Source of the DNA: an uncultured Rickettsiales bacterium
GTDB taxonomy: Bacteria; Pseudomonadota; Alphaproteobacteria; Rickettsiales; RI-342
Direction of reading: 5' to 3'
Length of the DNA: 64,000 nucleotides
Assembly (NCBI GenBank): GCA_964435165.1
Contig: CAYSXY010000001.1
Span: 43,847-107,846, forward strand
In this document: piece after piece, positions 17,460-38,120 of the stretch
Layout: every line of letters starts with the position of its first letter
How positions within the stretch are numbered: the first letter of the stretch is position 1
Translations under genes and position numbers: made by a program
Notes under the pieces: model-generated
Told to the model about the DNA's origin: nothing
Seen by the model: only the letters and a program-made list of their open reading frames with translations
Databases searched by the model: none

Positions 17460-17595
17460 AGTGGTGGATTATCGCGCTGTGGCCTGCCTTGTCCAGCGAA
17501 AAGCCGCACATGCTTATCGACGCAGGAAAGATTGTCAGCACTGCGGCGAATATGCTACGCATGAGCGTCTTTCATTCCATAGAGGCCGTGGCCTG

Positions 17596-18222
17596 GTGCG
17601 TACGTTACACTTCATCCTTGTGATCGCCATTCTTATCGTTAGTTCAGCGCCGGCAAGGGCGTTGTTTGATTACACGGAAACGCCATCGCATGACCTCAGT
17701 CTCTTTCCCAAATGGCTCGGCGTGTTGGAGCGCGATTCCAAACATCGTGGCCTGATGCGGCAGGAATGCCAGGAGACATCCCCCTACTGCCTTGACCAGC
17801 GCTGGCAGGATTTTCTGCTTTCATTACAAGGCCAATCGCTGGATGAGCAACTACGGCAGGTGAATCGCTATCACAACCAGGCTGATTATATTCTGGATAT
17901 GGTCAATTGGGGGGTGTTGGATTACTGGGCGACACCCTATGAATTTTTCAACCGTGACGGTGATTGCGAAGATTATGCCATTGCCAAATATATGAGCCTC
18001 AAGCAACTGGGCGTACCGCCTGAGCAGATGCGCGTGGTGGTACTGCAGGACACCAACCTGAACATTATCCATTCGGTTCTGGCTGTCTATGCGGAGGAGA
18101 CGGTGTATATTCTCGATAACCAGATTGAGCAGGTGATCACGGACCGCGACATTCGGCATTACCTGCCGATTTATTCCATCAATGAAGGCGGCTGGTGGCG
18201 GCATTTGCCGCGGAACGGATAG
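17596..18222 (+). CDS. Periplasmic transglutaminase-like cysteine protease (BTLCP, LapG-like)
   Basis: GTG at 17596 gives signal peptide VRTLHFILVIAILIVSSAPARA. Catalytic-triad context GDCEDYAIAKY (Cys codon 17965-17967), IIHSVLAVY, ILDNQ. Confidence 0.8.
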   Translation: MRTLHFILVIAILIVSSAPARALFDYTETPSHDLSLFPKWLGVLERDSKHRGLMRQECQETSPYCLDQRWQDFLLSLQGQSLDEQLRQVNRYHNQADYILDMVNWGVLDYWATPYEFFNRDGDCEDYAIAKYMSLKQLGVPPEQMRVVVLQDTNLNIIHSVLAVYAEETVYILDNQIEQVITDRDIRHYLPIYSINEGGWWRHLPRNG

Positions 18223-18408
18223 ACAGATTTGAACTGAAGGTTTTCTGCGCCCTCTCACCCTGCGGCCTTAGTCGCTGGCGCGAAGCAGCAGTTTTAAGAA
18301 TGAGGTGGCCCCGCGGCTTAGGCGGGGCCATGCTCATGACGACAGAGCATTCAGGTAGCTGCGCTATTCACATTTTCTGTGAATGGCGATGGCGGATCAC
18401 AACAGCAC

Positions 18409-20103
18409 TTACTGCTCGAGATCGCTCTCAGTATTACATTCCAGCCCATCTTCGCTCACCGCGAGTGGGTCCTGCAACACAGCCGTTCCGCAATTGACAT
18501 CGGCGCCTGTACCGGTGTCACCCGCGGCCGGGGCCAATGCACCAAGCTGATCAGCCGGGATATTGCCTAGATCCTGCGTTGCGCTGAGGTCGATATTGAC
18601 GTCAAACACGCCCACTTCATAGCTTTCAAAGCTGGTATCCTGCTCAATCGACTGCTCAGAGAAGGAGATGAGCGGACGGTTGAGATCGTTCGGGCCGAAT
18701 TCTACATCACTGGGGTCTACCGTGCCGGTTGGCGTTGGCGCGGGCGCCGGTGTGGGCGCAGGCGTCGGCTCCGGTGTTGGTTCACCTTCCGGTGGTAGTG
18801 ATACTGGCGGGTTAGGTTCCGGCGTTGGGAACTCAACCGGCGGCTGACTTACCGGCGGATTTGACGGTTCCGGCGTCGGCAATGGCGGCGCTGTCGAAAC
18901 CGGTGGGTTTGTCGGCTCCGGCGTGGTTGGTTCCGGTGTCGTTGGTTCCGGTGTGGTTGGCTCCAGCGTGGTCGGTTCCGGTGTGGTTGGCTCCGGTGTG
19001 GTTGGCTCCGGTGTGGTCGGCTCAATCACAATCTCACCACTTGGATCTTCCACCAAATATAATGCATTGATTTCACTTGTGATATTCGCCGGACGGCTAA
19101 TAGGTATATCGAAGGTGTTATCGACAGCATTAACGGCTAAGATAACTGTACCACCAGTTTTATGGTGTGTATTGGCATTAATCCGTCCATTAACCGTCAC
19201 ACCATGATCTGCAGAGGTGTGTGCATCCGATACTTTGTTGCCATCATTCAGGAATGCAAACGGCACACCATGTCCGGGTGCCGGATCATCATACGCACCT
19301 TGAAATGAGCGGGGTCTTTTACCAGCATCAACCGCGATTATGTTATCACCATCCAGGCCAATAGCAAAGGTACGCCCAGACGCCAAAATGACATTACCGA
19401 AATCTTTCTGGTTTGCGTTTAATTGACCGCCTGATTGCAACTCCACCTCTGGAGCTACAAGGGCAATCACTGCATTATCCACAATATTGGTATTAACTTG
19501 ACCGGAAACGCTGATTTTTCCGCCGGAAGCGGGAATATCAAAGTAAAAGAGGTTGTCTGTAGCCGCTACAAACTCGTCAACATCAATATCAGCAGCTGTA
19601 GCCAAAAATCCTGCACTGTAAATGGAGCCGCCAACATGCAAGCCTTTGGGACTAACAATAATAACACGCCCGTCAGCCCGTAGCGTACCATTAATTTGCG
19701 GTACTGTAGCGCTGTTAATTACACGATTCAAAACGATTGATGACGGTGCAGGTTGATTAAATTCCACTTCTCTGCCTGCATTAATATCAAAGCTGTCCCA
19801 ATCTATCGCAGCACGATCTGATAAGTCATAAACATGCTTGGTGGATGAACTCTGACCAGGAGCTGTATTTAGCACTGCAGAGCCTGCTCGCACCGCATTC
19901 ATAACTGGTAAATCCGCTGCACTGGCAAAGCGGGCGGCTTCAAATGTCACCATACCGGCAATCGCCACAGCGGAGAGGCAGCGCTGCACCGGGCTGTGAC
20001 GGCGGCTGAGCGCAGTGGAGCTGGCATAGCCATGCATGATGGCGTTGTTATGGTTGTTTTTTGCTGTGGTGCGCATGGTTATACTCCTCTGACGATCACC
20101 CAA
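18409..20103 (-). CDS. Short two-partner-secretion exoprotein (TpsA) with a Pro/Thr linker and an acidic C-terminus carrying PAAG plus two Cys
   Basis: TPS domain IDWDSFDINAGREVEFNQPAPSSIVLNRV...INGTLRADGRVIIVSPKGLHVG, then a beta-helix-like region, (PEPTT)n, and PAAG at 18520-18531. Cys codons at 18490-18492 and 18436-18438. Confidence 0.85.
   Translation of the reverse strand: MGDRQRSITMRTTAKNNHNNAIMHGYASSTALSRRHSPVQRCLSAVAIAGMVTFEAARFASAADLPVMNAVRAGSAVLNTAPGQSSSTKHVYDLSDRAAIDWDSFDINAGREVEFNQPAPSSIVLNRVINSATVPQINGTLRADGRVIIVSPKGLHVGGSIYSAGFLATAADIDVDEFVAATDNLFYFDIPASGGKISVSGQVNTNIVDNAVIALVAPEVELQSGGQLNANQKDFGNVILASGRTFAIGLDGDNIIAVDAGKRPRSFQGAYDDPAPGHGVPFAFLNDGNKVSDAHTSADHGVTVNGRINANTHHKTGGTVILAVNAVDNTFDIPISRPANITSEINALYLVEDPSGEIVIEPTTPEPTTPEPTTPEPTTLEPTTPEPTTPEPTTPEPTNPPVSTAPPLPTPEPSNPPVSQPPVEFPTPEPNPPVSLPPEGEPTPEPTPAPTPAPAPTPTGTVDPSDVEFGPNDLNRPLISFSEQSIEQDTSFESYEVGVFDVNIDLSATQDLGNIPADQLGALAPAAGDTGTGADVNCGTAVLQDPLAVSEDGLECNTESDLEQ
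18905..19025 (-). repeat. In-frame 15-bp tandem repeat encoding (T)PEPT units, about 8 copies
   Basis: ggttggctccggtgt-type units repeated head to tail. Protein reads EPTTPEPTTPEPTTPEPTTLEPTTPEPTTPEPTTPEPT. Confidence 0.9.
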
Positions 20104-20250
20104 ATAGTAGTCACACGATCTGTTGTTATTCTGGTTGAATACGGGATACCGCTGCCACCCAAAATATTTAACAAATTGTTAAAATCAAGCGCTAATTCAC
20201 CCTACTGTTTAAATTAATGCCCCCAAGCCATTGCTGTTTAACAATTATAT

Positions 20251-21933
20251 CTAGAAGCGACGGACCAGGCCAACAAACAGCCGTGGCTGATCGCCGTCAT
20301 TGCGTTCGGCGCTGACATTACGCGTCAGTGGCACGGCCAGTTCAACAAAGCCGGTGGTTTGGCTGTTGACATTGAAGCGCACGCCCGGACCGAACGAGGC
20401 AAGCGTATCGCGCCCACTCACACCTGGCAGGCCGTCTTCTTCCCATACCGCTCCAAAATCATAATAGAGATAAGCCTGGTAAGAACTGAGATATTCATAA
20501 TCGGTTGCACGACCATAGCGTAGCTCACCGCGGAAGGCGACACCATGATCGCCGGTGATTTCCGAAGGATCATAAGCCGAGCCGAACAGCGAGCCCCCTA
20601 CCCCGAACTCCTCTGACGAGAGTAACGGATCGAACGCATACTGCCCGGTGACACTCGTGAAGAGTGAGAAGTCACGCGGCAGATCCTGCAGGCGGGTGAT
20701 GGTCGCGTTAATGCTGGTAAAGTCGGCTTCGCCATCAGGCCGCGAGCGGTTGAGGCCGTCATCGCTGGCGCCAAACGCATCAATCCCCTGGCGTAACTGC
20801 ATATCCAGCAGGTTGATGCCGCGCCAATCATCGGCAACATCGAGATTGAAGCCGGCAAAGAGCGTACGCACACTGTCATCATAGAGTTCGATGCCGGAGA
20901 TATCGGTTTCCGTATCGACCATCTCAAACCCGACACGGGCAAACACATTATACGTACGAGAGCGCACAAACGGATGCTCGACAGCCACTTCAAAACGGGT
21001 GCTTTCCCCTTCGATATTCAATGGCTCAAGGAACGAGCCTGGCTCGGTCATGCTGTAGGCGCCACGCAGTTCTATCCGCGTGCCTTCATTGCCAATCTGC
21101 TGCTCATGTGCCACATCAATAAAGCGCAGTTCATCCACTTCTGAGGTGAGGATGCCACGCACTGTTGTGCGCTCATACATGCCGAGAATCGAGTTGGCAG
21201 CGGCGATGCCCGTCAACTGGTAAGGCCCAAGCAGACGGCTGCCGCGATTATCGGCCTGAATCGCCCCTTCATAAGTATCATGCCCGACGAGCAACACGAG
21301 GCTGGATGCACCAGCTTCAATCTGCGAGGGCTGGAGAATGCCGCGTGCGGTCACGCCCGGCAGATCATCGGCCAACAGCAAGTAACGCTCCAGTGTTTTG
21401 ACATTGAGCGGCTTGCTTTCCTGAATTTTCGCGGCATAGGCGCGCAGTAATTCTTCACTGCCCTTGATCTCGCCCTGAATATTCACATCGCTGATGTGAC
21501 CTTCGGCAATTTGCAATGTAACGACACCATCTTTAATGCGCTGCGGGCCGATAAAGGCACGCGAGAGGATATATCCATCACGGCGATATTTTGCCGTAAT
21601 GTTGCGTGCCAACTGATTAATCTCACGCATGGTCACACGCTTGCCGAGATAATCACTCACTTCCATTTTCAATATGTCATCGTCATAGACACTGTTGCCC
21701 TCAAACATCATATCATTGAGGACAAAGCTGACTTCCTGAATGGCGGCGTCACCAGCAGTGGTTGCGCCTTCCTGTTCAATCACTGCATCCTGCCTCGGCG
21801 TTGGAAGACTGCGCGGCAAGATGTCGCGTTGCACCCGTTCCGGCGCGGCGGTGGGGGGCACGATTTGCGCCCAGCTGGCAGAAGAAGTAGTGATGAGTAA
21901 AGCGGAAGCAAGGGCAAAAGAAAGCGAGCGCAT
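20251..21933 (-). CDS. TpsB outer-membrane transporter (ShlB/FhaC/HecB family)
   Basis: Signal peptide, POTRA-like N-terminal region (FEGNSVYDDD...LARNITAKYRRDGYILSRAFI), C-terminal beta-barrel ending in an aromatic residue (LVRRF). Immediately upstream of the TpsA gene. Confidence 0.9.
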   Translation of the reverse strand: MRSLSFALASALLITTSSASWAQIVPPTAAPERVQRDILPRSLPTPRQDAVIEQEGATTAGDAAIQEVSFVLNDMMFEGNSVYDDDILKMEVSDYLGKRVTMREINQLARNITAKYRRDGYILSRAFIGPQRIKDGVVTLQIAEGHISDVNIQGEIKGSEELLRAYAAKIQESKPLNVKTLERYLLLADDLPGVTARGILQPSQIEAGASSLVLLVGHDTYEGAIQADNRGSRLLGPYQLTGIAAANSILGMYERTTVRGILTSEVDELRFIDVAHEQQIGNEGTRIELRGAYSMTEPGSFLEPLNIEGESTRFEVAVEHPFVRSRTYNVFARVGFEMVDTETDISGIELYDDSVRTLFAGFNLDVADDWRGINLLDMQLRQGIDAFGASDDGLNRSRPDGEADFTSINATITRLQDLPRDFSLFTSVTGQYAFDPLLSSEEFGVGGSLFGSAYDPSEITGDHGVAFRGELRYGRATDYEYLSSYQAYLYYDFGAVWEEDGLPGVSGRDTLASFGPGVRFNVNSQTTGFVELAVPLTRNVSAERNDGDQPRLFVGLVRRF

Positions 21934-22288: not shown

Positions 22289-23572
22289 ATGCGCTTTGCC
22301 CACTCTCTCACCTTTGCCTGCCTCGCCAGCACCGCTTTTGTAGCTGTGGCCATAATGCCCACTCATTCGCTGGCAGCCGATAATAAGGAATCGATTGCCG
22401 ATTTGCGCAAAGAGTTGCAGGTGCAACGTGGTCGGATTGAAGTGCAGCAGCGCGCCCTGGAGACACAACTTCGGGCACTGGAGAAAAGCCAGCAACGCCT
22501 TAATAAGCAGATTAGGGATATTGATAAGTTAGAGAAACGTCTCAGCAAAGCGCTTGAAACCGCTCTGCCGGAAGAGATGGAAGCCATTGAACAAGCGGAT
22601 AGCGCTGTACCTGATCAAGTGGGAACGGAGCGTCGCACAGAAGAGATGGAAAAACCACAGGCGGTAGAGGTTGCGACTCTGGCAGATGAAGGGGGCGTCT
22701 TGCTCTCTAAAGGACAGCTTATTATTGACCCGTCGCTCGAATATTCCCGCGCTTCCACCTTGCGAGTCGCGGTGGAGGGCTTCACCATTGTACCGGCATT
22801 GAATATTGGCTCGTTTGATATTTCGCAGATCGACCGTGACACGTACAGCGCATCGCTTGGCTTGCGCTATGGCCTGACCAACCGCCTGGAGATCAGCACC
22901 CGAGTGCCGTATGTGTATCGTAATGACAGCACGCTCAGTCGGCCAATTGGCGAAGGCGTTGGCGTTGAGCGCCTGACAGATGTAAGTGGTGATGGTATTG
23001 GCGATTTGGAGTTCGGCGCTAACTATCAGTTAACCAATGGCGAAGGCGGCTGGCCCTTCCTGGTCGCAAATTTCCGCGTGAAATCGAACACGGGCACCAA
23101 TCCGTTTGAAGTGAATATTGACCCCGATACCGGGCTGCAGACAGAATTGCCGACCGGTTCCGGCTTCTGGGCTCTCTCGCCAAGCATCACCGCCATCTTC
23201 CCCTCCGACCCAGTCGTGTTTTTCGGTAATCTTGGGTACTTATATAATATGCCCAATGACTTTGGTGGCAATACGGGTGAGATTGATCCGGGCGACAGTA
23301 TCAGCTTCAGCTTTGGTATGGGCCTGGGTATTAATGATCGCACGTCATTCAATGTGGGCTATGGTCACAGCGTGGTGTTTGAAACCACACAGAATGGTAA
23401 TACATTACCCACCTCCGATGTGCTGCAGGTTGGTTCTCTCGACCTTGGTTTTTCTTATCAGGTCAATGACTCGCAGAATCTCAACTTTACCGTCAGCGCT
23501 GGCCTGACGGATGATGCACCTGATGTGCGCCTGGTGTTCCGCGCACCTTTCAGCCTCAACCTGCATGAATAG
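22289..23572 (+). CDS. Outer-membrane beta-barrel protein with N-terminal coiled coil (FapF-like architecture)
   Basis: Signal peptide ending in SLA, about 55 aa of heptad-like sequence (IADLRKELQVQRGRIEVQQRALETQLRALEKSQQRLNKQIRDIDKLEKRL), an acidic linker, then alternating-hydrophobic beta-strand region with GIGDLEFGANYQL. The CDS is secure; the functional call is architectural only. Confidence 0.55.
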   Translation: MRFAHSLTFACLASTAFVAVAIMPTHSLAADNKESIADLRKELQVQRGRIEVQQRALETQLRALEKSQQRLNKQIRDIDKLEKRLSKALETALPEEMEAIEQADSAVPDQVGTERRTEEMEKPQAVEVATLADEGGVLLSKGQLIIDPSLEYSRASTLRVAVEGFTIVPALNIGSFDISQIDRDTYSASLGLRYGLTNRLEISTRVPYVYRNDSTLSRPIGEGVGVERLTDVSGDGIGDLEFGANYQLTNGEGGWPFLVANFRVKSNTGTNPFEVNIDPDTGLQTELPTGSGFWALSPSITAIFPSDPVVFFGNLGYLYNMPNDFGGNTGEIDPGDSISFSFGMGLGINDRTSFNVGYGHSVVFETTQNGNTLPTSDVLQVGSLDLGFSYQVNDSQNLNFTVSAGLTDDAPDVRLVFRAPFSLNLHE

Positions 23573-23745
23573 CTGCCATTCTTAAACTGCATAGCTGTTA
23601 TTTTTACTTCTCGTTCATGATTATTGATTCGCAATATCTTTCATAAGTCGCTCTTATGCTTGGATTGATGCGCTTTTGAATACAGACTGTTCACCAAATT
23701 TACTTATTAACAACAAACATTAACGGGCGTTTATTTTTACTTGCA

Positions 23746-23774
23746 TGTTTGAAAAAGGCTATTATGCATAGTGC
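23746..23774 (+). promoter_or_regulatory. Candidate sigma-70-type promoter for the repeat-protein gene
   Basis: TTACTT-17 nt-TATTAT about 90 nt upstream of the ATG at 23866, in an AT-rich 290-bp spacer. Sequence pattern only. Confidence 0.25.
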
Positions 23775-23865
23775 GCAGGTAAAGGCGTTTTTGAATATTG
23801 ACTATTCGTTCATTTTTAAATTCGTCGCAAATAAATCTCATAAATATCCGTTCTGGAGGATTACA

Positions 23866-25986
23866 ATGAATTTTAAAACTCTTCTTGGCACAACGTCTGC
23901 CGTTGCTCTGTTGGCTTCCGTAGCCAGCACCCCGGCTTACGCTGTGGACGATGCCATTGATGGCAACAAGAACGACAACAACACCGTTGACCAGTCGCAA
24001 GACACCAACGATGCGTCGTTTAATGATAACAGCGAACTGACCGATAACTCGGACAACTCGATTGATACCGATAATTCAATCGATACCGATAACTCGGACA
24101 ATTCGGATAACTCGATCGATACCGCTGATTCGTACAATGCTGACAACACGAACAATTCGGACAACTCCGTAGACACCGATGTTGACAACAGCAACAACGC
24201 TGATAACTCGGATAATTCGGATAATTCGATCGACACCGCTGATTCGTACAACGATCAGTCCGATAACTCGGTTGATAATGACTACGATTTCGACAATGAT
24301 GTTGATACTGATGTTGACAACAGCAACAACTCCGACAACTCGGACAACAGCTCTGTTGACACCGACAATTCCGACAATTCGGATAACTCGATCGATACCG
24401 CTGATTCGTACAACACGGATAACACGAACAATGCCGATAACTCGGACAATTCGGACAATTCCGTAGATACCGATACCGACAATTCCGACAACTCGGACAA
24501 CTCGGACAATTCGGATAACTCGATCGATACCGCTGATTCGTACAACGATCAGTCCGATAACACCGATAACTCGGATAACTCGATCGATACCGATACCGAC
24601 AATTCGAACAACTCCGATAACTCGGACAATTCGGATAACTCGATCGATACCGCTGATTCGTACAACGATCAGTCCGACAATTCGAACAACTCGGACAATT
24701 CGGACAACAGCTCCATTGATACCGACAATTCGAACAACTCCGATAATTCGGACAATTCGGACAACTCCATCGATACCGCTGATTCGTACAACGACAGCTC
24801 CGATAACTCGATTGATACCGATACGGACAACTCGATCGACAACGACTATTCGTATGACAATGATACGGATACCGATGTGGATAACTCCGACAATTCGGAC
24901 AATTCGGTTTACACCGAAACCAACACGGACAACTCGGACAACAGCCTGGTGACCACAACCACCACGCAAACCGATTCGTTCAACACCGATACGGATACCG
25001 ATGTTGATAATTCCGATAACTCGGATAACTCGATCGATACCGCTGATTCCTACAACACGGATAACAGCAATAACTCGGACAATTCGAACAATTCCGACAA
25101 CTCCAACAACTCGGATAACTCGAACAACTCCGACAACTCGATCGATACCGATACGGACAATTCGGACAATTCGACCACGGATATCGCTGATTCCTACAAT
25201 ACGGATAACAGCGACAACTCCGATAACTCGGTGAATGATTCGTACAATACCGACAACACGAACAACTCGGATAACTCCGACAATTCGGACAACTCGGTAT
25301 ACACCGAAACCAACACCGACAATTCCGATAACTCGGACAACTCGGACAACTCGACCACCGATATTGCTGATTCCTACAACACGGACAACAGCAACAACTC
25401 GGACAACTCGAACAACTCCGATAACTCCGATAATTCCGACAACTCGGTGAACGATTCCTACAACACCGCTGATTCGAACAACACTGACAACTCCGATAAC
25501 TCGGACAACTCAGTGAATGATTCGAACAATACTGAAGGTTCGTACAACACCACTGATAACTCCGATAACTCGGACAACAGTGACAGCTCGGTGAATGATT
25601 CCAATAACACCGACGATTCGTACAACGTTTCGGATTCGGATAACGACAACAACTCGTACAACACGACTGATTCGAACAACGATAACAGCGATAACAGCAT
25701 GAATGATAATCGCACCATCGTTGACAACAGCGTGAACGTGACGAGCGGTGATGTTCTGTTCCAGGGTAACAGCCAAGTTACCGCTTCGGTTCTGAACTCG
25801 ACCGTTGCTAACTCGACCGTGAACTGGGATCTGCAAGATGTGACCATTCAAGGTAACCGTCTGCAAGGTGAAGCCTTCAAAGGTTCCAGCGGTATCAACG
25901 CAGCGAACATGAACACCGGCGTGAACTCCAATGTTCAACAGTCGATTTCGGTTCGTGCGACCATCAACAATGGCGTAACCCCGTAA
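23866..25986 (+). CDS. Secreted 706-aa D/N/S/T-rich repeat protein with a C-terminal Q/N/G-rich module (candidate major fibre subunit, FapC-like)
   Basis: GGAGGA RBS 6 nt upstream of the ATG at 23866. Signal peptide MNFKTLLGTTSAVALLASVASTPAYA. About 563 aa of DNS-type repeats. C-terminus GNRLQGEAFKGSSGINAANMNTGVNSNVQQSISV is shared with the two downstream small proteins. Confidence 0.85.
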   Translation: MNFKTLLGTTSAVALLASVASTPAYAVDDAIDGNKNDNNTVDQSQDTNDASFNDNSELTDNSDNSIDTDNSIDTDNSDNSDNSIDTADSYNADNTNNSDNSVDTDVDNSNNADNSDNSDNSIDTADSYNDQSDNSVDNDYDFDNDVDTDVDNSNNSDNSDNSSVDTDNSDNSDNSIDTADSYNTDNTNNADNSDNSDNSVDTDTDNSDNSDNSDNSDNSIDTADSYNDQSDNTDNSDNSIDTDTDNSNNSDNSDNSDNSIDTADSYNDQSDNSNNSDNSDNSSIDTDNSNNSDNSDNSDNSIDTADSYNDSSDNSIDTDTDNSIDNDYSYDNDTDTDVDNSDNSDNSVYTETNTDNSDNSLVTTTTTQTDSFNTDTDTDVDNSDNSDNSIDTADSYNTDNSNNSDNSNNSDNSNNSDNSNNSDNSIDTDTDNSDNSTTDIADSYNTDNSDNSDNSVNDSYNTDNTNNSDNSDNSDNSVYTETNTDNSDNSDNSDNSTTDIADSYNTDNSNNSDNSNNSDNSDNSDNSVNDSYNTADSNNTDNSDNSDNSVNDSNNTEGSYNTTDNSDNSDNSDSSVNDSNNTDDSYNVSDSDNDNNSYNTTDSNNDNSDNSMNDNRTIVDNSVNVTSGDVLFQGNSQVTASVLNSTVANSTVNWDLQDVTIQGNRLQGEAFKGSSGINAANMNTGVNSNVQQSISVRATINNGVTP
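24022..25710 (+). repeat. Coding low-complexity array with 9-nt (Asp/Asn-Asn-Ser) periodicity and higher-order ADSYN punctuation
   Basis: gataactcg, gacaattcg and gacaactcc units repeated. Nine ADSYN-containing motifs by my count (IDTADSYN x7, TDIADSYN x2). Synonymous codon alternation breaks up perfect DNA identity. Confidence 0.92.
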
Positions 25987-26029
25987 TATACGGAGTGTAA
26001 CCAACGTTGTTACGATTTGCGGGAAGTGC

Positions 26030-26055
26030 CGAATTCGGCACTTCCCCTTCGTAAC
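26030..26055 (+). terminator. Strong stem-loop after the repeat-protein gene (possible attenuating terminator)
   Basis: gggaagtgccg aatt cggcacttccc, an 11-bp perfect stem 44 nt after the stop. No strong U-tract. Confidence 0.4.
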
Positions 26056-26136
26056 ATCAACCACAATATGTTATATCAAACCAGCAGGATCCTTCCTTTT
26101 GCTTTGATGTAACAACCTAATATCAGGATAACGATA

Positions 26137-26700
26137 ATGCGCTTACGCAAGTCGACCATTGCTATGACCTTTGTCGCGGTTGCCGCACTTGTAGGCTTCC
26201 GCCCAGCGGTTGCCGACCAGCCTGTGTTCAATTACAGCCCAATGTATGGTCCGGCTCATCAGGTATCCAACCTGTTTTTCCCTGGAGAACTTAGCCCGTG
26301 GCGTGACCTTTCTCTTCCGTGGAACGCCAGCACTGATGCAACCTGGCTGCGTTATGCCGAGAATTATGGCCCGGCACTGCCTCTGCCATCAATTCTGGAA
26401 GGCTCACCTTCTTCTGTGAGTATGACATTGGCTACCAATATGGAATTCTTCAATGCTCAAACGCTGCAGGATGACAATCTGAATGAGATGCGGGGTGCAT
26501 TCGCCGCTGAAACGTTGGGTGTGTCGATTCTGGAAGCGGCGGCTGTGCAAAACACCATCAATGGTGATTCCATTACCGGCTATAACCGCCTGCAGAATGA
26601 AGCCTTTCAAAATTCAAGCGGTGTGATCAGCGTGATTCAGAATACCGGTAATAATGTCATTATTCAGAACTCGACCATCGTCAACCTGCATATGGAATAA
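26137..26700 (+). CDS. Small secreted protein carrying the shared C-terminal Q/N/G module (FapB-like candidate)
   Basis: Signal peptide ...FRPAVA. LNEMRGAF motif. C-terminal YNRLQNEAFQNSSGVISVIQNTGNNVIIQNSTIVNL is about half identical to the C-terminus of the repeat protein. Confidence 0.7.
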   Translation: MRLRKSTIAMTFVAVAALVGFRPAVADQPVFNYSPMYGPAHQVSNLFFPGELSPWRDLSLPWNASTDATWLRYAENYGPALPLPSILEGSPSSVSMTLATNMEFFNAQTLQDDNLNEMRGAFAAETLGVSILEAAAVQNTINGDSITGYNRLQNEAFQNSSGVISVIQNTGNNVIIQNSTIVNLHME

Positions 26701-26772
26701 TTTACGCTGCATCCGGTCGCCAGGCGTGATAAGGACGGTGCTCGTACACGAAACAAAGACGAAAACAGGGAT

Positions 26773-27465
26773 ATGCGGCACATACTGACATTACTTGTAA
26801 CGATGATGGCCCTACAAGGGGCGCCCGCCCATGCGCAATTGGCATTATGGGATACGGTCGGCGGCAATTTTTCAGTTCCGGTGCAAACCATCTCCGAAAG
26901 GCGCTTTAGTGGTGTCATCCCTCAACAAAAAGATTTCAGCTGCGGTTCGGCTGCACTTGCGACACTCCTGACCTATCACTATGAGCGACCTATTACGGAG
27001 GAAGAAGCGCTGGAAGCCATGTATGCAGTCGGCGAACAGGAAAAAATCGAGCGTGAAGGCTTCTCCCTTCTGGATATGAAAAATTATCTGGCCACTCTGG
27101 GGCTGCGCGCCGATGGCTATCGTCAATCGCTTGATCAACTGAGTTCAGTAGGCATCCCAGCTATCGTCCTCATTAACTATAATGGCTATTTGCACTTTGT
27201 TGTTATCAAAGGCGTTACCGACGATGATGTATTGGTGGGCGACCCAGCGCTAGGCCTGCGCAGCATGGGGCGTGAGAAGTTTGAATCGATGTGGAACGGT
27301 ATTCTCTTTGTCATTCGTGACGATATTGATATCGCCAAAAGCAATTTCAACCAAATAACGGAATGGGCCATGATTGGTCAGGCTCCGATTACTGCACAGG
27401 CAACCTCTTTGCAGGATTTATCGAGCTTCTATCTCAATCTGCGCACCGCACCGAACTATTATTAA
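26773..27465 (+). CDS. Periplasmic C39-family cysteine peptidase (FapD-like, stand-alone, no ABC transporter)
   Basis: Signal peptide ...LQGAPAHA. QQKDFSCGSAALATLL (Cys codon 26941-26943), YLHFVVIKG (His), VLVGDPALG (Asp). Confidence 0.85.
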   Translation: MRHILTLLVTMMALQGAPAHAQLALWDTVGGNFSVPVQTISERRFSGVIPQQKDFSCGSAALATLLTYHYERPITEEEALEAMYAVGEQEKIEREGFSLLDMKNYLATLGLRADGYRQSLDQLSSVGIPAIVLINYNGYLHFVVIKGVTDDDVLVGDPALGLRSMGREKFESMWNGILFVIRDDIDIAKSNFNQITEWAMIGQAPITAQATSLQDLSSFYLNLRTAPNYY

Positions 27466-27467
27466 GG

Positions 27468-28013
27468 ATGATGACGTTCATGACCGTTGGATTTAGTGCA
27501 TCTCTTTCTCGCCTGACACAGAGTGCTGCCACTGTGGCATTGCTGCTCTCACTGGCGATGCCGGCCCACGCTTTTATTGATGATGTGCCCGATAGTGGCG
27601 CCGACGCAGAGGCATTTTTTGGGGCTGAAAACAAGGTAAGTGACGAGGAACTTTCCGGGATGCGTGGAGCGTATATCGACGCAAATGGCTTGGAAGTGAA
27701 TTTCACCCTGACGACACAAACTATTATCGATGGCCGTGTGGTCCATGAAGTGCGACTGACACCTCAAGTGACACCGACTTTCAACGTCAATGACCTATCC
27801 AAGCTGGTTCGTGTTGGTGAAGGCAATATTGCCTACCCGCAAGAGCTGCTGAATGACGCGAACCGTATCATGACTGTGATTCAGAACACAAATGATAACA
27901 CGGTGATTCAAAATCTGAACCTGCTCGATCTTGAAGTTGATAATGTGCAGGATTTCTACAATCAGCAAATGACTGGCATGGTCAATTTCTCTGCCGTTCG
28001 CGCTTTACGATAA
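27468..28013 (+). CDS. Small secreted paralogue of the 26137..26700 product
   Basis: Met cluster at 27468, 27471 and 27480 just after the C39 stop. Signal peptide ...LSLAMPAHA. LSGMRGAY motif and RIMTVIQNTNDNTVIQNLNLL module. Confidence 0.65.
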   Translation: MMTFMTVGFSASLSRLTQSAATVALLLSLAMPAHAFIDDVPDSGADAEAFFGAENKVSDEELSGMRGAYIDANGLEVNFTLTTQTIIDGRVVHEVRLTPQVTPTFNVNDLSKLVRVGEGNIAYPQELLNDANRIMTVIQNTNDNTVIQNLNLLDLEVDNVQDFYNQQMTGMVNFSAVRALR

Positions 28014-30261: not shown

Positions 30262-32235
30262 TTACACTTTTGCTAATTTGACTTTTGCCAGACCAGGCTT
30301 GGGCGTGAGAGAAGCGGCATGATGCAAACGGCGCAGACAATCGGCGATGGATACCGCATCCAATTGTGCTTCCTCAATCATCTGCTGCGGCGATGCCTGC
30401 TGCTGAAAACGATCCGGCAATGTCAATGTGCGCAATTGCAGGCCTGTATCCAGTGCACCGGTTTCTGCCAGATAATGCATCACCTGAGCACCAAAGCCAC
30501 CACGCGCTCCTTCTTCAAGTGTGACGAATGTATGGTGATGTCGCACCAACTGATTAATCAGTGCGGTATCCAACGGCTTGGCAAAGCGGGCATCGGCCAG
30601 CGTAATCGGCAATCCCTCTGCCTCCAGCCAGTTTGCCGCCTGCTCTGCATCGGCCAGACGCGAGCCGAACGACAATAATGCTATCCCCGCTCCCTCGCGC
30701 AGGATGCGTCCTTTTCCTATCTCCAAAGGCGCAGGATGACTAGGAATGGTCGCGCCGACTCCCTCGCCTCGAGGGTAACGCACAGCGCTGGGTGCATCGT
30801 CAATCACCGCTGCTGTCGCCACCATGCGGCTCAGTTCCGCCTCATCGGCAGCGCCCATGACGACCATGTGAGGGAGCATGGAGAGATAGCCGATATCAAA
30901 GCTGCCGGCATGGGTGGGGCCATCGGCTCCGACCAGCCCGGCGCGGTCTATGGCAAAACGCACCGGCAGCTGTTGAATCGCGACATCATGCACCACCTGG
31001 TCATAGGCACGCTGAAGAAAGGTGGAATAAATAGCAGCAAACGGCTTATACCCTTCCGCAGCCAACCCGGCGGCAAATGTCACCGCATGTTGTTCGGCAA
31101 TGCCGACATCAAAACAACGCTCAGGAAAGGCCTTGGCAAATTTGTCCAGCCCCGTGCCACTCGGCATCGCCGCGGTGATCGCTACGATTCGGTCATCACG
31201 CTCTGCCTCGGCAATCAGGCTATTGGCAAAGACGCTGGTATAGCTCGGCGCTTTTGGCGCTGACTTGACCTGCGCGCCGGTGCGTATATCAAACTTTGCT
31301 ACACCGTGATATTTATCGGCGGAGGATTCCGCCGGTTCATAACCATAGCCTTTTTTAGTGACGACGTGGACCAGCACGGGGCCAGAATCGCGCTGATCAC
31401 GAACATTTTTGAGTACAGGCAACAGATGGTCGAGGTTATGGCCATCAATCGGGCCGACATAGTAAAACCCCATTTCTTCAAACAAGGTCGCTCCGGCAGA
31501 TGCGCCGCCGGTTGCCAATGTACGAGCATAATGTTCAGCAGTTCGCGCCACCTGCGCCAGCGGACGCGGAAAACGCCGCAAAATACTTTTACCTAAATCG
31601 CGTAAGTGGTGATAGCCACGCGAGGAGGCAAGGCGAGCAAGATAGGTGCTCATCGCTCCGGTTGGCGGCGCAATGGACATATCGTTGTCATTTAAAATCA
31701 CAATCAAGCGTGTACCCAATGCCCCGGCATTATTCATCGCCTCATATGCCATGCCAGCGCTCATGGCCCCGTCACCGATAACGGCGATCACTTCATGATC
31801 TTCTCCTCGAAGATCCCGCGCCACGGCCATGCCCAACCCCGCCGAAATAGAGGTGGAGCTATGCCCGGCGCCAAAACTGTCATGTTCACTTTCACCGCGT
31901 TTGGTAAAGCCGGACAATCCATCTTTCTGGCGAATCGTGCGAATGCGGTCCCGCCTGCCGGTGAGAATTTTGTGGGGATAGGCCTGATGCCCCACATCCC
32001 AAATCAGCTTATCTTTGGGCGTATCAAACAGATAATGCAATGCTGTGGTCAACTCGACAACACCAAGGCCAGCCCCCAGATGACCACCCGTGGAAGCCAC
32101 TGCGTTGATGGTTTCGCGCCTGAGTTCATCTGCTAACTGTGGCAGATCAGATTCGTTTAACTGGCGTAGTGCCTGAGGCGTGTCCACCTGATCCAACAGC
32201 GGGGTTACATGTTTTAACGTCTGCATGTCGGACAT
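30262..32235 (-). CDS. dxs: 1-deoxy-D-xylulose-5-phosphate synthase
   Basis: [47 protein letters not shown] motif. Met at 32235 ([15 protein letters not shown]) preferred over 32271. Confidence 0.93.
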
Positions 32236-32460
32236 GCACCATTCCTTTTCACCGGTTGTAGGTATGTTCACTCTTCTTCATAGCATGGTTCGGCCTAAAC
32301 GCCAATAAATGCTCATTCGCGCCAATAATATCCGGTCGGCTTTCCTTGCGTGTTCGTTTTTTCTGTGCATACTCGCGCCATGCTGCCAGGGCATGATCAT
32401 ACTTAATGTTGCCCGATGTCAGATCGACCGTAAGTTCCATCATCGTGAGTCATCGCATCC

Positions 32461-32958
32461 ATGGTGCTTTTTCGCAGTTTTCTACTGTTCGTATTTTTGT
32501 GCATTAGCTGGTATATCATGTCCGGCTTTGACAAGCCATTTTTCCTGATTTCCGGCGTTATCTGCAGCTTTTTATGTGTCGTCATAGTTCACCGTATGGA
32601 TGTGATCGACGATGAAGGCCAGCCACTCCATTTGAGCCTTGGCGCCCCACTTTACTGGTTATGGCTGTTTAAAGAAATGTTTCTCTCCAGTGCGCGTGTG
32701 GCGCACGTTACGCTGGCAGAAAATTTGCGCATTGACCCTGATTTTGAGACGATTGTGAGTAATCAACATGATCCTGGCAGCCATGCTGCCTACGCCAACT
32801 CCATTACCCTGACACCGGGCACCGTATCGGTCAATATTGAGCAGGAAGATGATGAAACCGCGCATATTTATGTCCATGCGCTGGAGAAAAGCAGCCTAAA
32901 AGACCTGAAAGACGGGCGTATGCAGCAATGGGTCAAACGACTGACGGGGATGTCGTAA
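32461..32958 (+). CDS. mrpE: Mrp/Mnh antiporter subunit E
   Basis: MnhE-like size and N-terminal TM pair. First gene of an overlapping Mrp-type operon. Confidence 0.75.
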   Translation: MVLFRSFLLFVFLCISWYIMSGFDKPFFLISGVICSFLCVVIVHRMDVIDDEGQPLHLSLGAPLYWLWLFKEMFLSSARVAHVTLAENLRIDPDFETIVSNQHDPGSHAAYANSITLTPGTVSVNIEQEDDETAHIYVHALEKSSLKDLKDGRMQQWVKRLTGMS

Positions 32959-33272
32959 TGCAGGTGATTGATATTGCACTGATAGCGATTCTGGTCAGTA
33001 TGGCGCTGGTGATTATCCGCGGCATTCTGGGCCCATCAATTCAGGATCGTCTGCTTGCTGTGAACGCATTTGGTAGCAACACGGTCATTGCCATCGCCTT
33101 GCTCGCTTTCATGGTCGATAATATGATGTTTATCGATATCGCGCTGGTCTACGCACTGATTAACTTCACCAGCACCATTGCTATGCTGAAATTCTTTCGT
33201 TATGGCAGCTTTGATCACCAGGTCGTTGAATCCAGTGATGATCATATTTTGCATGGGCAGGAGAAGCCATGA
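32958..33272 (+). CDS. mrpF: Mrp/Mnh antiporter subunit F
   Basis: TAATG overlap with mrpE. ILGPSIQDRLLAVNAFGS motif typical of MnhF. Confidence 0.8.
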   Translation: MQVIDIALIAILVSMALVIIRGILGPSIQDRLLAVNAFGSNTVIAIALLAFMVDNMMFIDIALVYALINFTSTIAMLKFFRYGSFDHQVVESSDDHILHGQEKP

Positions 33273-33622
33273 TGATCATTGACTGGTTTAGTTATGGCCT
33301 GATTATTTTAGGAGCGTTTTTTACGCTGACTGGAGCAGTCGGCATTGTACGCATGCCGGATTTCTTTAATCGCCTGCACCCGGCAGGGCTCAAAGATTCG
33401 ATGGGCATTCCGCTGGTCACCTTTGGGTTGATGTTACAGGCCGATAGCGCGCTAATTGCCATTAAGCTACTGTTTCTAATGCTTTTTCTTCTTTTCACCA
33501 ATCCGACATCGTCGCACGCACTTGCAAAAAGCGCCGTATTGAACGTCACGGATGAGAAAAAAGGCAACGGCCATCGTCAATCGGCCGTCGCCGCATCTAC
33601 GTCAAAGAGGCGTAAGTCATGA
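33269..33622 (+). CDS. mrpG: Mrp/Mnh antiporter subunit G
   Basis: GAVGIVRMPDFFNRLHPAGLKDSMG motif typical of MnhG. Confidence 0.85.
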   Translation: MMIIDWFSYGLIILGAFFTLTGAVGIVRMPDFFNRLHPAGLKDSMGIPLVTFGLMLQADSALIAIKLLFLMLFLLFTNPTSSHALAKSAVLNVTDEKKGNGHRQSAVAASTSKRRKS

Positions 33623-38109: not shown

Positions 38110-38120
38110 GGCTATTTTCC

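What the first reader, a model, noticed from the sequence alone, without database searches (positions are those of the whole stretch)
22289..28013. Fap-like functional-amyloid secretion cluster with altered gene order and a highly expanded major subunit
Five co-oriented genes all encode Sec-signal-bearing products. (1) An outer-membrane beta-barrel is preceded by a roughly 55-aa coiled coil and a linker, which is the hallmark architecture of FapF. (2) A 706-aa repeat protein comes next. (3) A 187-aa protein follows it. (4) A stand-alone periplasmic C39 peptidase has an intact Q/C/H/D set, the role of FapD. (5) A roughly 180-aa paralogue of (3) closes the cluster. Proteins 2, 3 and 5 share a C-terminal Q/N/G/S-rich module (EAF-x-x-SSG-x5-(Q/M)NTG-x-N-x3-Q). 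To my recollection this resembles the NAF-x-GASG...N..AG..NQQ repeats of Pseudomonas FapB and FapC. As I recall, Fap operons (fapABCDEF) have been reported from Beta-, Gamma- and Deltaproteobacteria. Here the flanking genes look alphaproteobacterial, the order is F-C-B-D-E-like, no FapA-like gene is evident, and each subunit carries one module rather than three. This is my best candidate for the undescribed system in the window.
Basis: partly seen in the sequence, partly recalled or inferred. Interest (0 to 1): 0.85.

Follow-up and report, generated by a model that had tools for sequence, protein, structure and literature searches.

The report
Fap-related C39/barrel surface-fibre secretion cluster
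This alphaproteobacterial five-gene cluster is a diverged, widespread relative of the Pseudomonas Fap amyloid-export system, and two of its small proteins carry textbook cleavage sites for the cluster's protease, which makes the unknown target of that protease directly testable.

Summary
In detail: five co-oriented genes (22289-28013) all encode products with Sec-type signals.

- **Transporter and protease.** The barrel is a true FapF homologue (PDB 5O65 E=7e-30; the top 18 fold matches to the AF2 model are all FapF). It has a 59-residue N-terminal helix and a disordered linker. The stand-alone C39 peptidase is FapD-like (E=1e-48) with Q51/C57/H141/D157 intact.
- **Not a canonical Fap operon.** Both proteins score far below NCBIfam's Fap cut-offs. 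No product matches the FapB, FapC or FapE models, and there is no three-repeat subunit.
- **The 187-aa and 181-aa proteins.** They are paralogues (hhalign 98.7%) and look FapE-like rather than FapB-like. Behind the Sec signal each carries a canonical double-glycine leader (hydrophobic P12, E P8, L P7, M/L P4, R-G-G/A).
- **The 706-aa protein.** It has no such site. It is about 590 residues of Asp/Asn/Ser low complexity (net charge about -161) ending in one Fap-repeat-like module (hhalign 92%, P=6e-7).
- **Distribution.** The unit [cargo]-p3-C39-p5 next to the barrel recurs in 65 of 80 fetched loci across several classes. The p3 family has 1,573 clusters and no Pfam or NCBIfam model.

Such loci were noted in 2018 only as "FapD/FapF-only". 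Verdict: a new variant of a known kind. Amyloid formation is untested.

The parts
22289..23572 (+). p1: FapF-type outer-membrane transporter (427 aa). Signal peptide about residues 1-29, long helix 33-91 (presumed trimerising coiled coil), disordered linker 93-132, beta-barrel 143-424 with a conserved LPTGSG motif.
   Evidence: NCBIfam FapF E=3.4e-51 over residues 16-421, matching 6-418 of the 420-position model; 174 bits against a cut-off of 700. PDB FapF 5O65 E=6.9e-30. AF2 pLDDT 79.4, above 90 in the barrel. The Foldseek top 18 hits are all FapF, TM 0.80-0.85, followed by COG4313 4RL8. P288/T289/G290 are invariant in A1.
23866..25986 (+). p2: 706-aa presumed cargo or fibre protein. Sec signal (residues 1-26), then about 590 aa of Asp/Asn/Ser/Thr low complexity (81 'DNS' triplets, 9 'ADSYN' units, net charge about -161), then a conserved C-terminal domain (residues about 638-706). 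It has no double-glycine site.
   Evidence: composition and repeats; ribosome-binding site at 23866; C-terminal domain conserved in 11 related loci; 29 cargo-type homologues lack the leader motif.
25855..25953 (+). Fap-repeat-like module of p2 (residues 664-696, NRLQGEAFKGSSGINAANMNTGVNSNVQQSISV).
   Evidence: hhalign of the module family against Aeromonas FapB/C repeats: probability 92.1%, P=6.3e-7, score 29.5. Column-shuffled controls gave 9.0 +/- 2.7, maximum 18.4, 0 of 60 reaching the real score. The p2 C-terminal HMM hits Aeromonas FapB at E=3.7e-5.
26137..26700 (+). p3: 187-aa pro-protein. Sec signal (1-26), a pro-region with a 65-aa insertion that typical 107-135-aa homologues lack, a double-glycine-type site at L115-N-E-M-R119-G120-A121|F122, and a mature 66-aa part ending in EAFQNSSGVISVIQNTGNNVIIQNSTIVNLHME.
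   Evidence: Alignments A2 and A3. The family has 1,573 representatives at E<=1e-3. No Pfam or NCBIfam match. AF2 pLDDT 55.8, with a short helix at 112-118 over the leader.
26461..26499 (+). Predicted C39 (double-glycine-type) leader core of p3, P13-P1 (residues 109-121, TLQDDNLNEMRGA).
   Evidence: Family logo: P12 V/L/I, P8 E, P7 L in 52 of 57, P3 R in 44 of 57, P2 G in 57 of 57.
26773..27465 (+). p4: stand-alone, Sec-exported C39 cysteine peptidase (FapD-like) with Q51, C57, H141 and D157.
   Evidence: Pfam Peptidase_C39 7.5e-25. NCBIfam FapD 1e-48, 166 bits against a cut-off of 330, and FilB 4.5e-40. PDB double-glycine protease domain 6MPZ 2.7e-10. Residue positions.
27468..28013 (+). p5: 181-aa FapE-like pro-protein, a paralogue of p3. 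Sec signal (about 1-35), double-glycine leader ...V57-S-D-E-E61-L62-S-G-M65-R66-G67-A68|Y69, and a mature part with NG..V.F and TVIQNTNDNTVIQN motifs.
   Evidence: hhalign p3 family against p5 family 98.7%. The p5-family HMM hits Aeromonas FapE at E=2.3e-5. hhalign against FapE gives 72.8%, P=3e-5. Six of 35 members of the p5 alignment match NCBIfam FapE; one of the six is the Aeromonas FapE itself. The Pfam Lactococcin leader region weakly matches the motif.
27636..27671 (+). Predicted C39 leader core of p5, P12-P1 (VSDEELSGMRGA).
   Evidence: Family logo, n=48: P12 V/A/L/I, P10 D, P8 E in 35, P7 L in 48 of 48, P4 M/L in 44, P3 R in 48 of 48, P2 G in 48 of 48, P1 G in 46 and A in 2, P1' F in 45.

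Best explanation
The cluster encodes a FapD/FapE/FapF-type two-step ('hybrid') secretion and assembly system. It is a sister lineage to the Pseudomonas Fap amyloid machinery.

**Proposed steps**
1. All five products cross the inner membrane through Sec.
2. In the periplasm the stand-alone C39 peptidase p4 cuts the two FapE-like pro-proteins p3 and p5 at their double-glycine-type sites, after G120-A121 and G67-A68. This removes the short pro-peptides.
3. The matured, unfolded Asn/Gln-rich p3 and p5 engage and open the trimeric coiled-coil/12-strand barrel p1 and pass through it.
4. The unprocessed, very acidic 706-aa p2 follows through the same pore.
5. On the surface, the shared C-terminal Fap-repeat-like modules of p2, p3 and p5 stack into a small cross-beta core. 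This core nucleates and anchors the structure, and the roughly 590-residue polyanionic Asp/Asn/Ser region projects outward as a hydrated, probably cation-binding matrix or adhesive fibre.

**Shown**
- Homology of p1 to FapF and of p4 to FapD, with intact catalytic residues.
- Paralogy of p3 and p5.
- Conserved canonical leader motifs in p3 and p5, and their absence in the cargo.
- Similarity of the module to Fap repeats.
- Conserved synteny.

**Inferred**
- Cleavage by p4.
- Order of export.
- Surface assembly.
- Any amyloid character.
For: - **p1 is FapF-like.**: full-length match to the model, and the FapF crystal structures are the top 18 fold hits.
- **p4 is FapD-like.**; the Q/C/H/D set is intact; it has a Sec signal.
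- **p3 and p5 carry a canonical double-glycine leader after a Sec signal.** In the p5 family P7 L, P3 R and P2 G are each 48 of 48 and P1 G is 46 of 48. In the p3 family P2 G is 57 of 57. The Pfam Lactococcin leader region and single hits to mediterrocin and GG_sam_targ models land on the same motif.
- **FapE link.** p5 sits between the C39 gene and the barrel in the 24 loci that have fap order. It is weakly but specifically similar to FapE. Aeromonas FapE has the aligned 'GELAHLRGRY'.
- **Published precedent.** In Pseudomonas UK4, FapE is the only Fap protein whose first ~70 residues are missing, and the first peptide seen starts at residue 72. FapD's catalytic Cys is required for secretion (PMC5557850; PMC6173800). 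The predicted p5 cut is after residue 68.
- **Cargo proteins lack the site.**. This parallels the unprocessed FapB and FapC.
- **The module resembles Fap repeats.** hhalign 92%, P=6e-7, with clean shuffle controls.
- **The module is tandemly repeated in some relatives.** In the same cluster type it occurs 4 to 9 times (L044, L038, L049). The Thermithiobacillus versions hit NCBIfam FapB at E=1.7e-4.
- **Synteny.** The unit [2]-3-D-5 is conserved beside the barrel in 65 of 80 loci.
- **p3 is probably unfolded as a monomer.** The AF2 model has low confidence, as expected for a substrate exported unfolded.
Against: - No experiment bears on this family.
- p2, p3 and p5 do not match the NCBIfam FapB, FapC or FapE models. 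A p3 profile does not find FapC in the PDB chain library, though I did not confirm that FapC chains are in that copy.
- The link to FapE is weak: 17 bits, and hhalign 73% over a stretch that includes the signal peptide.
- P1 of the p3 family is variable (G/R/T/A), and Aeromonas FapE has G-R, so the exact scissile bond is uncertain.
- A single module per subunit may be too little for a stable cross-beta fibre.
- The acidic low-complexity region argues against a classical compact amyloid.
- Signal peptides were judged by eye.
Confidence: 0.5

Rival explanations
1. The machinery is the same (Sec, periplasmic C39, FapF-like pore), but the shared C-terminal module is only an export or recognition signal for the pore. 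In this reading p2 is a soluble or loosely attached polyanionic surface protein, not a polymerising fibre, and p3 and p5 are pilot or plug-opening factors. The system would be a general outer-membrane secretion route for low-complexity proteins and would form no amyloid.
For: - The module lies at or near the extreme C-terminus in every cargo and in p3.
- Cargo composition is very diverse: D/N/S/T-rich, G/A-rich, or multi-repeat.
- The window's p2 has one module and about 590 residues of highly charged sequence that should resist aggregation.
- The near-invariance of 'IQNSGNNVIIQ' across classes fits recognition by a conserved partner.
Against: - In several relatives the module is tandemly repeated 4 to 9 times along the protein. 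That is hard to explain for a pure C-terminal signal and is typical of cross-beta stacking units.
- The module is similar to the FapB/C repeats, which form the amyloid core in Pseudomonas (PMC5557850).
Confidence: 0.27
2. The cluster is a bona fide member of the Fap functional-amyloid family, with fapF moved to the front, fapA lost, p2 as FapC, p3 as FapB and p5 as FapE.
For: - FapF and FapD are the best NCBIfam and PDB matches.
- Loss of fapA and separation of fapF are the commonest variants in accepted Fap systems. Accepted Vibrio and Acidithiobacillus systems have a FapB with one or two repeats and a FapC with 4 to 16 (PMC3792158).
- The module is similar to Fap repeats.
Against: - Scores are a quarter to a half of the equivalog cut-offs: 174 against 700 and 166 against 330. 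Even a divergent true Fap system (Aeromonas) scores 371 and 249.
- There is no hit to the FapB, FapC or FapE models.
- p3 is a paralogue of p5 and carries a cleavable leader, unlike FapB.
- Members of this family were scored as 'FapD and FapF only' by the Fap authors' own HMMs.
- Barrel identity is 37-41% within the family (to its plasmid- and chromid-borne members) but 25-29% to Aeromonas FapF.
Confidence: 0.13
3. The cluster is a bacteriocin, microcin or autolysis-peptide export locus like the Neisseria nap island. In this reading mature p3, and perhaps p5, are bioactive GG-leader peptides released through the FapF-like pore.
For: - The machine is the same pair, a C39 peptidase plus a FapF homologue, and it exports GG-peptides in Neisseria (PMC11798529).
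- p3 matures to a peptide of about 66 aa.
- The leader matches bacteriocin leaders.
Against: - The mature p3 sequence is almost invariant from Alpha- to Gammaproteobacteria and Bdellovibrionota, which is the opposite of fast-evolving toxins.
- It is neither cationic nor amphipathic.
- No immunity-like gene is present in the cluster.
- The module is shared with a 706-aa structural-looking protein.
- The substrates have Sec signals.
Confidence: 0.06

Closest known systems
Pseudomonas Fap functional-amyloid system (fapABCDEF; FapF structure 5O65)
   Same: - Sec-exported components.
- A periplasmic stand-alone C39 peptidase (FapD).
- A trimeric-type transporter with an N-terminal coiled coil, a linker and a 12-strand barrel (FapF).
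- A FapE-like protein encoded next to the peptidase.
- Asn/Gln/Gly-rich 'AF-x-G-x-x-G...N...G..N.Q' modules in the exported proteins, with the last module at the extreme C-terminus.
- Relatives with the order subunit-D-E-F.
   Different: - The barrel is about 23-29% identical to FapF (24% to 5O65 in the structural alignment, 28.9% to Aeromonas FapF).
- All NCBIfam equivalog cut-offs are missed.
- There is no FapA and no three-repeat FapB or FapC.
- There are two FapE-like paralogues instead of one.
- The leader is a canonical double-glycine leader, whereas the Fap authors state that Fap proteins lack canonical C39 sequences.
- The cargo is a huge polyanionic low-complexity protein with a single module.
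- The host is an alphaproteobacterium.
'FapD/FapF-only' loci noted by Rouse, Matthews and Dueholm 2018 (PMC6173800, Fig. S1 and Supplementary data 1)
   Same: This is the same family. The Nitrosomonas europaea locus in their table corresponds to loci L060 and L078 here, which have p3-C39-p5-barrel.
   Different: The 2018 survey detected only the D and F genes. The associated p3, p5 and cargo genes, their leaders and the shared module were not described there.
Neisseria nap island (NapP C39 peptidase and NapF FapF-like channel; PMC11798529)
   Same: A stand-alone C39 peptidase paired with a FapF homologue, proposed to process and export peptides that contain a GG motif.
   Different: Nap substrates are small cationic microcin-like peptides that promote autolysis. 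Here the substrates are conserved Asn/Gln-rich proteins plus a 706-aa acidic protein, and they carry a Sec signal ahead of the leader.
Acinetobacter baumannii filABCDEF 'putative pilus' operon (NCBIfam FilB and FilC)
   Same: FilB is a C39 peptidase homologue (E=4.5e-40 to p4) and FilC is a FapF-like barrel (E=2.9e-17 to p1). The genes are adjacent.
   Different: Identity is lower (barrel 25.6%). There are no counterparts of FilA, FilD (an additional 567-aa ORF), FilE or FilF in the window, and no p3, p5 or p2 homologues in the fil locus.
Double-glycine leader peptides with peptidase-containing ABC transporters (PCAT, ComA, LagD; class II bacteriocins and microcins)
   Same: The same peptidase family. 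The leader consensus is also the same: hydrophobic at P12, P7 and P4, Glu at P8, Gly-Gly or Gly-Ala at P2-P1.
   Different: In canonical systems the leader is the N-terminus of a cytoplasmic precursor and the C39 domain is fused to a cytoplasmic-face ABC exporter. Here the leader follows a Sec signal, the peptidase is free in the periplasm, and export is through an outer-membrane barrel.

Membership tests
Fap functional-amyloid system (Dueholm 2010/2013; NCBIfam FapB-F equivalogs) | FapF transporter: N-terminal periplasmic coiled coil, linker, plugged 12-strand barrel. | tested here: met
   NCBIfam FapF E=3.4e-51 over the full length. 5O65 E=7e-30. AF2 helix 33-91, linker and barrel. FapF structures are the top 18 Foldseek hits. 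The equivalog cut-off is missed (174 against 700 bits). Trimerisation was not tested.
Fap functional-amyloid system | FapD: Sec-exported stand-alone C39 peptidase with a catalytic Cys. | tested here: met
   FapD model E=1e-48, 166 bits against a cut-off of 330. Q51/C57/H141/D157 are present. The signal peptide was read from the sequence.
Fap functional-amyloid system | FapB and FapC: subunits with three imperfect about-37-aa repeats separated by linkers (R1-L1-R2-L2-R3). | tested here: not met
   p2, p3 and p5 give no hit to NCBIfam FapB or FapC at E<=1, and each has a single module. At the level of the module the similarity to FapB/C repeats is significant (hhalign 92%, P=6e-7).
Fap functional-amyloid system | FapE: a secreted minor component encoded between fapD and fapF, N-terminally processed. 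| tested here: inconclusive
   p5 follows the C39 gene, and in the 24 relatives with fap order it lies between D and F. The p5 HMM hits Aeromonas FapE at E=2.3e-5. hhalign gives 72.8%. Six of 35 members of the p5 alignment match NCBIfam FapE, one of them the Aeromonas FapE itself, but the window's p5 does not.
Fap functional-amyloid system | Operon order fapABCDEF (fapA is often lost). | tested here: not met
   The window order is F-cargo-p3-D-p5 and there is no FapA. Only 12 of 65 related loci share this order; 24 have the fap-like order and 26 are convergent.
Fap functional-amyloid system | The product forms SDS-insoluble, formic-acid-soluble, ThT/Congo-red-positive fibrils. | not testable with these tools
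   Needs expression and biochemistry. The AF2 model of p3 shows only low-confidence, largely unstructured sequence.
C39 double-glycine leader substrates | Leader consensus: hydrophobic P12, P7 and P4, Glu at P8, Gly at P2, Gly/Ala/Ser at P1. | tested here: met
   The p5 family (n=48) and p3 family (n=57) logos fit the consensus. Window p5 is VSDEELSGMRGA|Y and window p3 is LQDDNLNEMRGA|F. There are weak Pfam Lactococcin-leader matches.
C39 double-glycine leader substrates | The leader is the extreme N-terminus of a cytoplasmic precursor and is cut by a C39 domain fused to an ABC exporter. | tested here: not met
   The leader follows a Sec signal. The peptidase is a 230-aa stand-alone protein with its own signal, and the cluster has no ABC transporter.
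Acinetobacter Fil system | filABCDEF gene set (FilA, FilD, FilE and FilF besides FilB and FilC). | tested here: not met
   Only FilB-like and FilC-like proteins are present. The fil locus L083 has no p3, p5 or p2C HMM hit.

The most novel reading that the evidence does not exclude
This family may show the general, possibly ancestral, logic of FapD/FapF 'hybrid' secretion. In that logic, pilot proteins carry a Sec signal followed by a double-glycine leader (the FapE class, here p3 and p5). A free periplasmic C39 peptidase cuts them, which licenses a coiled-coil-gated 12-strand barrel to export unprocessed cargo marked by a C-terminal Asn/Gln module. On this reading it is a distinct, widespread outer-membrane secretion pathway. 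It occurs in Alpha-, Beta- and Gammaproteobacteria, Bdellovibrionota and Desulfuromonadales, and possibly in Bacteroidota. It would serve very different low-complexity surface polymers, and the Pseudomonas Fap amyloid would be one specialised offshoot.
Probability: 0.35. Interest if true: 0.8.

Novelty: new variant of a known kind. Interest (0 to 1): 0.62.

Why it matters
- **An open question becomes testable.** What the periplasmic peptidase FapD cuts, and why that cut is needed for secretion, has been open since the 2017 FapF structure paper. That paper noted that Fap proteins lack canonical C39 sites. In this sister family the candidate substrates carry near-perfect double-glycine leaders at a fixed position. 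The cleavage hypothesis can therefore be tested with one point mutant and one mass measurement, and the result should transfer to Pseudomonas FapE.
- **An unannotated family gets a name and a role.** The p3 family is a sizeable group of small proteins with no annotation: 1,573 clusters at 50% identity and no Pfam or NCBIfam model. The loci previously recorded as 'FapD/FapF only' gain their missing parts.
- **The pathway may be broader than amyloid export.** The machinery appears in Alphaproteobacteria and other groups, and the cargo is very diverse. This suggests a broader secretion pathway for surface polymers than the amyloid-specific view implies.

Tried and rejected
- **Family libraries.** Pfam and NCBIfam scans of p2, p3 and p5, and of 39 p3-family and 35 p5-family members, found no informative family. 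The exceptions were weak FapE and Lactococcin-leader hits.
- **Solved structures.** A p3-family profile against PDB sequences gave only chance hits with E above 0.4.
- **Structure of p3.** The AF2 model is low confidence (pLDDT 55.8), so no fold search was attempted.
- **p5 homologues.** The word-indexed homologue search for p5 returned only one relative. The p5 family therefore had to be built from the fetched loci.
- **More canonical Fap operons.** I looked for them in the plasmid collection. Only one Aeromonas record (a chromosome filed as a plasmid) holds one, so comparisons with FapB, FapC and FapE rest on a single canonical system plus the NCBIfam models.
- **Regulatory elements.** Promoter and terminator scans were no better than shuffles. 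Rfam found nothing in the window, so no riboswitch or regulatory RNA is proposed.
- **Literature.** Searches found no paper describing the p3, p5 or cargo proteins.
- **Rejected: the barrel is an unrelated COG4313 or MetA-pathway uptake channel.** The Pfam Phenol_MetA_deg hit suggested this, but FapF outranks 4RL8 by eight orders of magnitude in E-value, and the coiled coil plus the C39 synteny are FapF-specific.
- **Rejected: the long minus-strand ORFs inside p2 are genes.** ORFs 24020-24958 and 24076-24969 are by-products of the repeat composition.

Full report
**What is in the window.** Five co-oriented + strand genes occupy 22289-28013.
- p1: 22289-23572, 427 aa.
- p2: 706 aa from the ATG at 23866, which has a GGAGG Shine-Dalgarno 7 nt upstream. 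The mechanical ORF starts at a TTG at 23749.
- p3: 26137-26700, 187 aa.
- p4: 26773-27465, 230 aa.
- p5: most likely 27468-28013, 181 aa, starting 2 nt after the p4 stop.

Each product starts with a plausible Sec signal, judged by eye. The cluster lies between a divergent two-partner-secretion pair and a convergent aminotransferase gene. The nearby DXS protein is 69% identical to Azospirillum and 66% to Sinorhizobium. The closest barrel homologues come from Rickettsiales, Rhodospirillales and other alphaproteobacterial MAGs.

**The transporter and the peptidase are Fap-type.**
- p1 matches the NCBIfam FapF model over its whole length (E=3.4e-51, residues 16-421 on model positions 6-418 of 420). 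It matches the FapF crystal-structure sequence 5O65 at E=7e-30.
- An AF2 model (pLDDT 79.4, above 90 in the barrel) shows a 59-residue helix (33-91), a disordered linker (93-132) and a barrel (143-424). Its top 18 Foldseek matches in the PDB are all FapF chains (E down to 3.6e-21, TM 0.80-0.85), ahead of the COG4313 channel 4RL8.
- p4 is a 230-aa C39 peptidase (Pfam 7.5e-25; NCBIfam FapD 1e-48) with Q51, C57, H141 and D157 in place.
- Both proteins fall well below NCBI's equivalog cut-offs: 174 against 700 bits and 166 against 330 bits. A divergent but genuine Fap operon from Aeromonas caviae (locus L081) scores 371 and 249 bits.
- Barrel identity is 37-41% to members of the window's family found on plasmids and chromids, and up to 57% to metagenomic relatives. 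It is only 25-29% between that family and Aeromonas FapF.

**The small proteins are FapE-like pro-proteins with a double-glycine leader.** p3 and p5 are paralogues: family-against-family hhalign gives 98.7% and E=4e-16. Alignments of relatives show a common plan:
1. a Sec signal;
2. a short pro-region;
3. a strongly conserved motif;
4. an Asn/Gln-rich mature part that ends in, or contains, '(V)IQN(S/T)GNNV(I)IQN'.

The motif, counted back from the presumed cut, is as follows.
- **p5 family (n=48):** P12 V/A/L/I, P10 D, P8 E, P7 L (48 of 48), P4 M/L (44 of 48), P3 R (48 of 48), P2 G (48 of 48), P1 G (46) or A (2), P1' F.
- **p3 family (n=57):** P12 V, P8 E, P7 L (52 of 57), P3 R (44 of 57), P2 G (57 of 57), P1 G/R/T/A.

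This is the classical double-glycine leader consensus recognised by C39 peptidases, except that it sits behind a Sec signal. In the window the sites are ...LQDDNLNEMRGA|FAAE in p3 and ...VSDEELSGMRGA|YIDANG in p5.

Three observations tie p5 to FapE.
- Pfam's Lactococcin model weakly aligns its leader region to exactly this stretch of p5.
- Aeromonas FapE carries the aligned 'GELAHLRGRY'.
- The p5-family HMM finds Aeromonas FapE at E=2.3e-5 among a few hundred ORFs. hhalign gives 72.8%. FapE is the only NCBIfam family hit by more than one member of the p5 alignment: 6 of 35, one of which is the Aeromonas FapE itself.

The FapF structure paper reported three relevant points. FapD's catalytic Cys is needed for secretion. 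FapE alone lacks peptides from its first ~70 residues (the first peptide starts at residue 72). [quoted passage not shown] The predicted p5 cut after residue 68 fits that picture, and here the site is canonical.

**The large protein is unprocessed cargo with one Fap-like module.**
- Mature p2 is 680 aa: 24% Asn, 23% Asp, 20% Ser and 11% Thr. It has 166 acidic and 5 basic residues, 81 'DNS' triplets and nine 'ADSYN' units.
- Its last ~70 residues are conserved in cargo proteins of related loci and include NRLQGEAFKGSSGINAANMNTGVNSNVQQSISV.
- None of 29 cargo-type homologues has the leader motif. This parallels the unprocessed FapB and FapC.
- A profile of 94 such modules aligns in register with the six FapB/FapC repeats of Aeromonas. 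hhalign gives probability 92.1%, P=6.3e-7 and score 29.5. Sixty column-shuffled controls gave 9.0 +/- 2.7, with a maximum of 18.4; a reversed control scored 7.9.
- In some relatives with the same gene cluster the cargo holds 4 tandem modules (Thermithiobacillus tepidarius, L044) or 8-9 (alphaproteobacterial MAGs L038 and L049). The Thermithiobacillus proteins hit NCBIfam FapB as their only match (E=1.7e-4 and 0.023).
- Elsewhere the low-complexity part is Gly/Ala-rich rather than Asp/Asn/Ser-rich.
- The window's p2, p3 and p5 themselves match no Fap subunit model.

**Conservation and distribution.**
- A scan of one genome per species found at least 533 relatives of the barrel; 80 loci were fetched.
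- Of the 80 loci, 65 contain the C39 gene, 62 a p3-type gene, 68 a p5-type gene and about 31 a recognisable cargo gene.
- The order p3-C39-p5 holds in 59 of 60 loci that have all three genes.
- The barrel is convergent in 26 loci, downstream on the same strand (fap order) in 24, upstream on the same strand (as in the window) in 12, and divergent in 3.
- Fourteen of the 15 loci without a C39 hit are cut by a contig end.
- Hosts include Alphaproteobacteria (Rickettsiales and Rhodospirillales MAGs, Micavibrio, Kiloniellaceae, Virgifigura); Nitrosomonas, Sulfuricella, Variovorax and Massilia; Neptunomonas, Methylobacter and Thermithiobacillus; and Bdellovibrionota and Desulfuromonadales. Two Bacteroidota MAGs also appear, but these could be binning errors.
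- A p3 profile finds 1,573 cluster representatives at E<=1e-3 among 1.84 billion proteins. Neither p3 nor p5 has a Pfam or NCBIfam family.

**Relation to the literature.**
- Fap systems were described only in Beta-, Gamma- and Deltaproteobacteria (PMC3792158).
- In 2018 the same group noted co-localised fapD and fapF homologues in five further phyla, and orders that 'encode only FapD and FapF' (PMC6173800). Their table lists Nitrosomonas europaea with just those two genes. That is this family: loci L060 and L078 here have p3-C39-p5-barrel. The D/F pairing was therefore known. The p3, p5 and cargo components, their leaders and the shared module do not appear in the literature I could search.
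- Two other D/F-type systems exist: the Neisseria nap island, which exports GG-peptides (PMC11798529), and the Acinetobacter fil operon.

**Mechanism and verdict.** The most likely function is a FapD/E/F-type two-step secretion and assembly system.
1. All components are exported by Sec.
2. p4 cleaves p3 and p5 at their double-glycine sites.
3. The matured proteins and the unprocessed p2 pass through the p1 pore.
4. The shared modules associate at the surface, and the polyanionic p2 region is exposed.

Cleavage, export order and any amyloid character are inferences. The main rival keeps the machine but treats the module as an export signal only. The tandemly repeated modules in relatives count against that reading.

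The cluster fails several defining tests for membership of the Fap family proper but clearly works with the same machinery. I classify it as a new variant of a known kind. It is of moderate to good interest because it offers a clean handle on the unresolved FapD substrate question.

Noticed in passing
window 15258-21933 (both strands): Immediately upstream lies a set of adhesion- and biofilm-type genes. They are a PAS + HD_5 (HD-GYP-like) protein (15258-17459, -), a Peptidase_C93/BTLCP LapG-like cysteine proteinase (17407-18219, +), a 564-aa TPS-domain protein with 'TPEP' proline-rich repeats (18412-20103, -), and its ShlB/FhaC-type transporter (20254-21933, -). The last is divergent from p1 across a 355-bp intergenic region. 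Co-regulation with the Fap-like cluster is possible.
   Followed up: partly
window 24020-24969 (- strand) and composition bins 24001-26000: Long minus-strand ORFs (312 and 297 aa) lie inside p2. The region also shows a strong skew anomaly (GC skew -0.18, AT skew +0.24). Both are by-products of the GAY/AAY/TCG-rich repeat composition, not genes.
   Followed up: yes
window 22676-22700 (p1 residues ~130-138, 'LADEGGVLL'): An E-G-G-V motif just before the barrel is nearly invariant in the family (G136 in at least 90% of sequences, V137 invariant). It aligns with the plug region of FapF. Rouse et al. 2017 speculated that FapD might also cut FapF at GG/GA motifs at this junction.
   Followed up: no
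L083 5734-6600 (A. baumannii FilA): After its signal peptide FilA has 'MDDAALSAATGQ|DGINIG'. It can be laid over the p5 leader (EELSGMRGA|Y), with L at P7 and G at P2. The Fil system's C39 peptidase may therefore also cut its first gene product. This comparison was by eye only.
   Followed up: no
L082 7920-12709 (Vibrio sp. SCSIO 43009 plasmid): This plasmid holds a copy of the same cluster in the window's gene order (barrel, DNS-rich cargo, p3, C39, p5). The cargo, p3 and C39 reading frames are split by frameshifts, and the barrel lacks the coiled-coil region. It is either decaying or mis-assembled.
   Followed up: partly
P0137 (p3 homologue from Vibrio spp.): A 109-aa member of the p3 family is named 'carbon storage regulator' in public records. 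This is almost certainly a mis-annotation.
   Followed up: no
window 26215-26460 (p3 residues 27-108): The window's p3 has a 65-residue, Pro/Trp/Leu-rich insertion in its pro-region that no other aligned family member has. Typical p3 proteins are 107-135 aa. AF2 places a helix at residues 66-76. Its role is unknown.
   Followed up: no
window 32001-40000: There is a strongly negative AT skew (-0.14 to -0.25) over a block of + strand genes. The block includes a Proton_antipo_M (Mrp/NADH-quinone oxidoreductase-type) membrane protein at 35072-36610. This is probably a codon and composition effect of hydrophobic membrane proteins.
   Followed up: no
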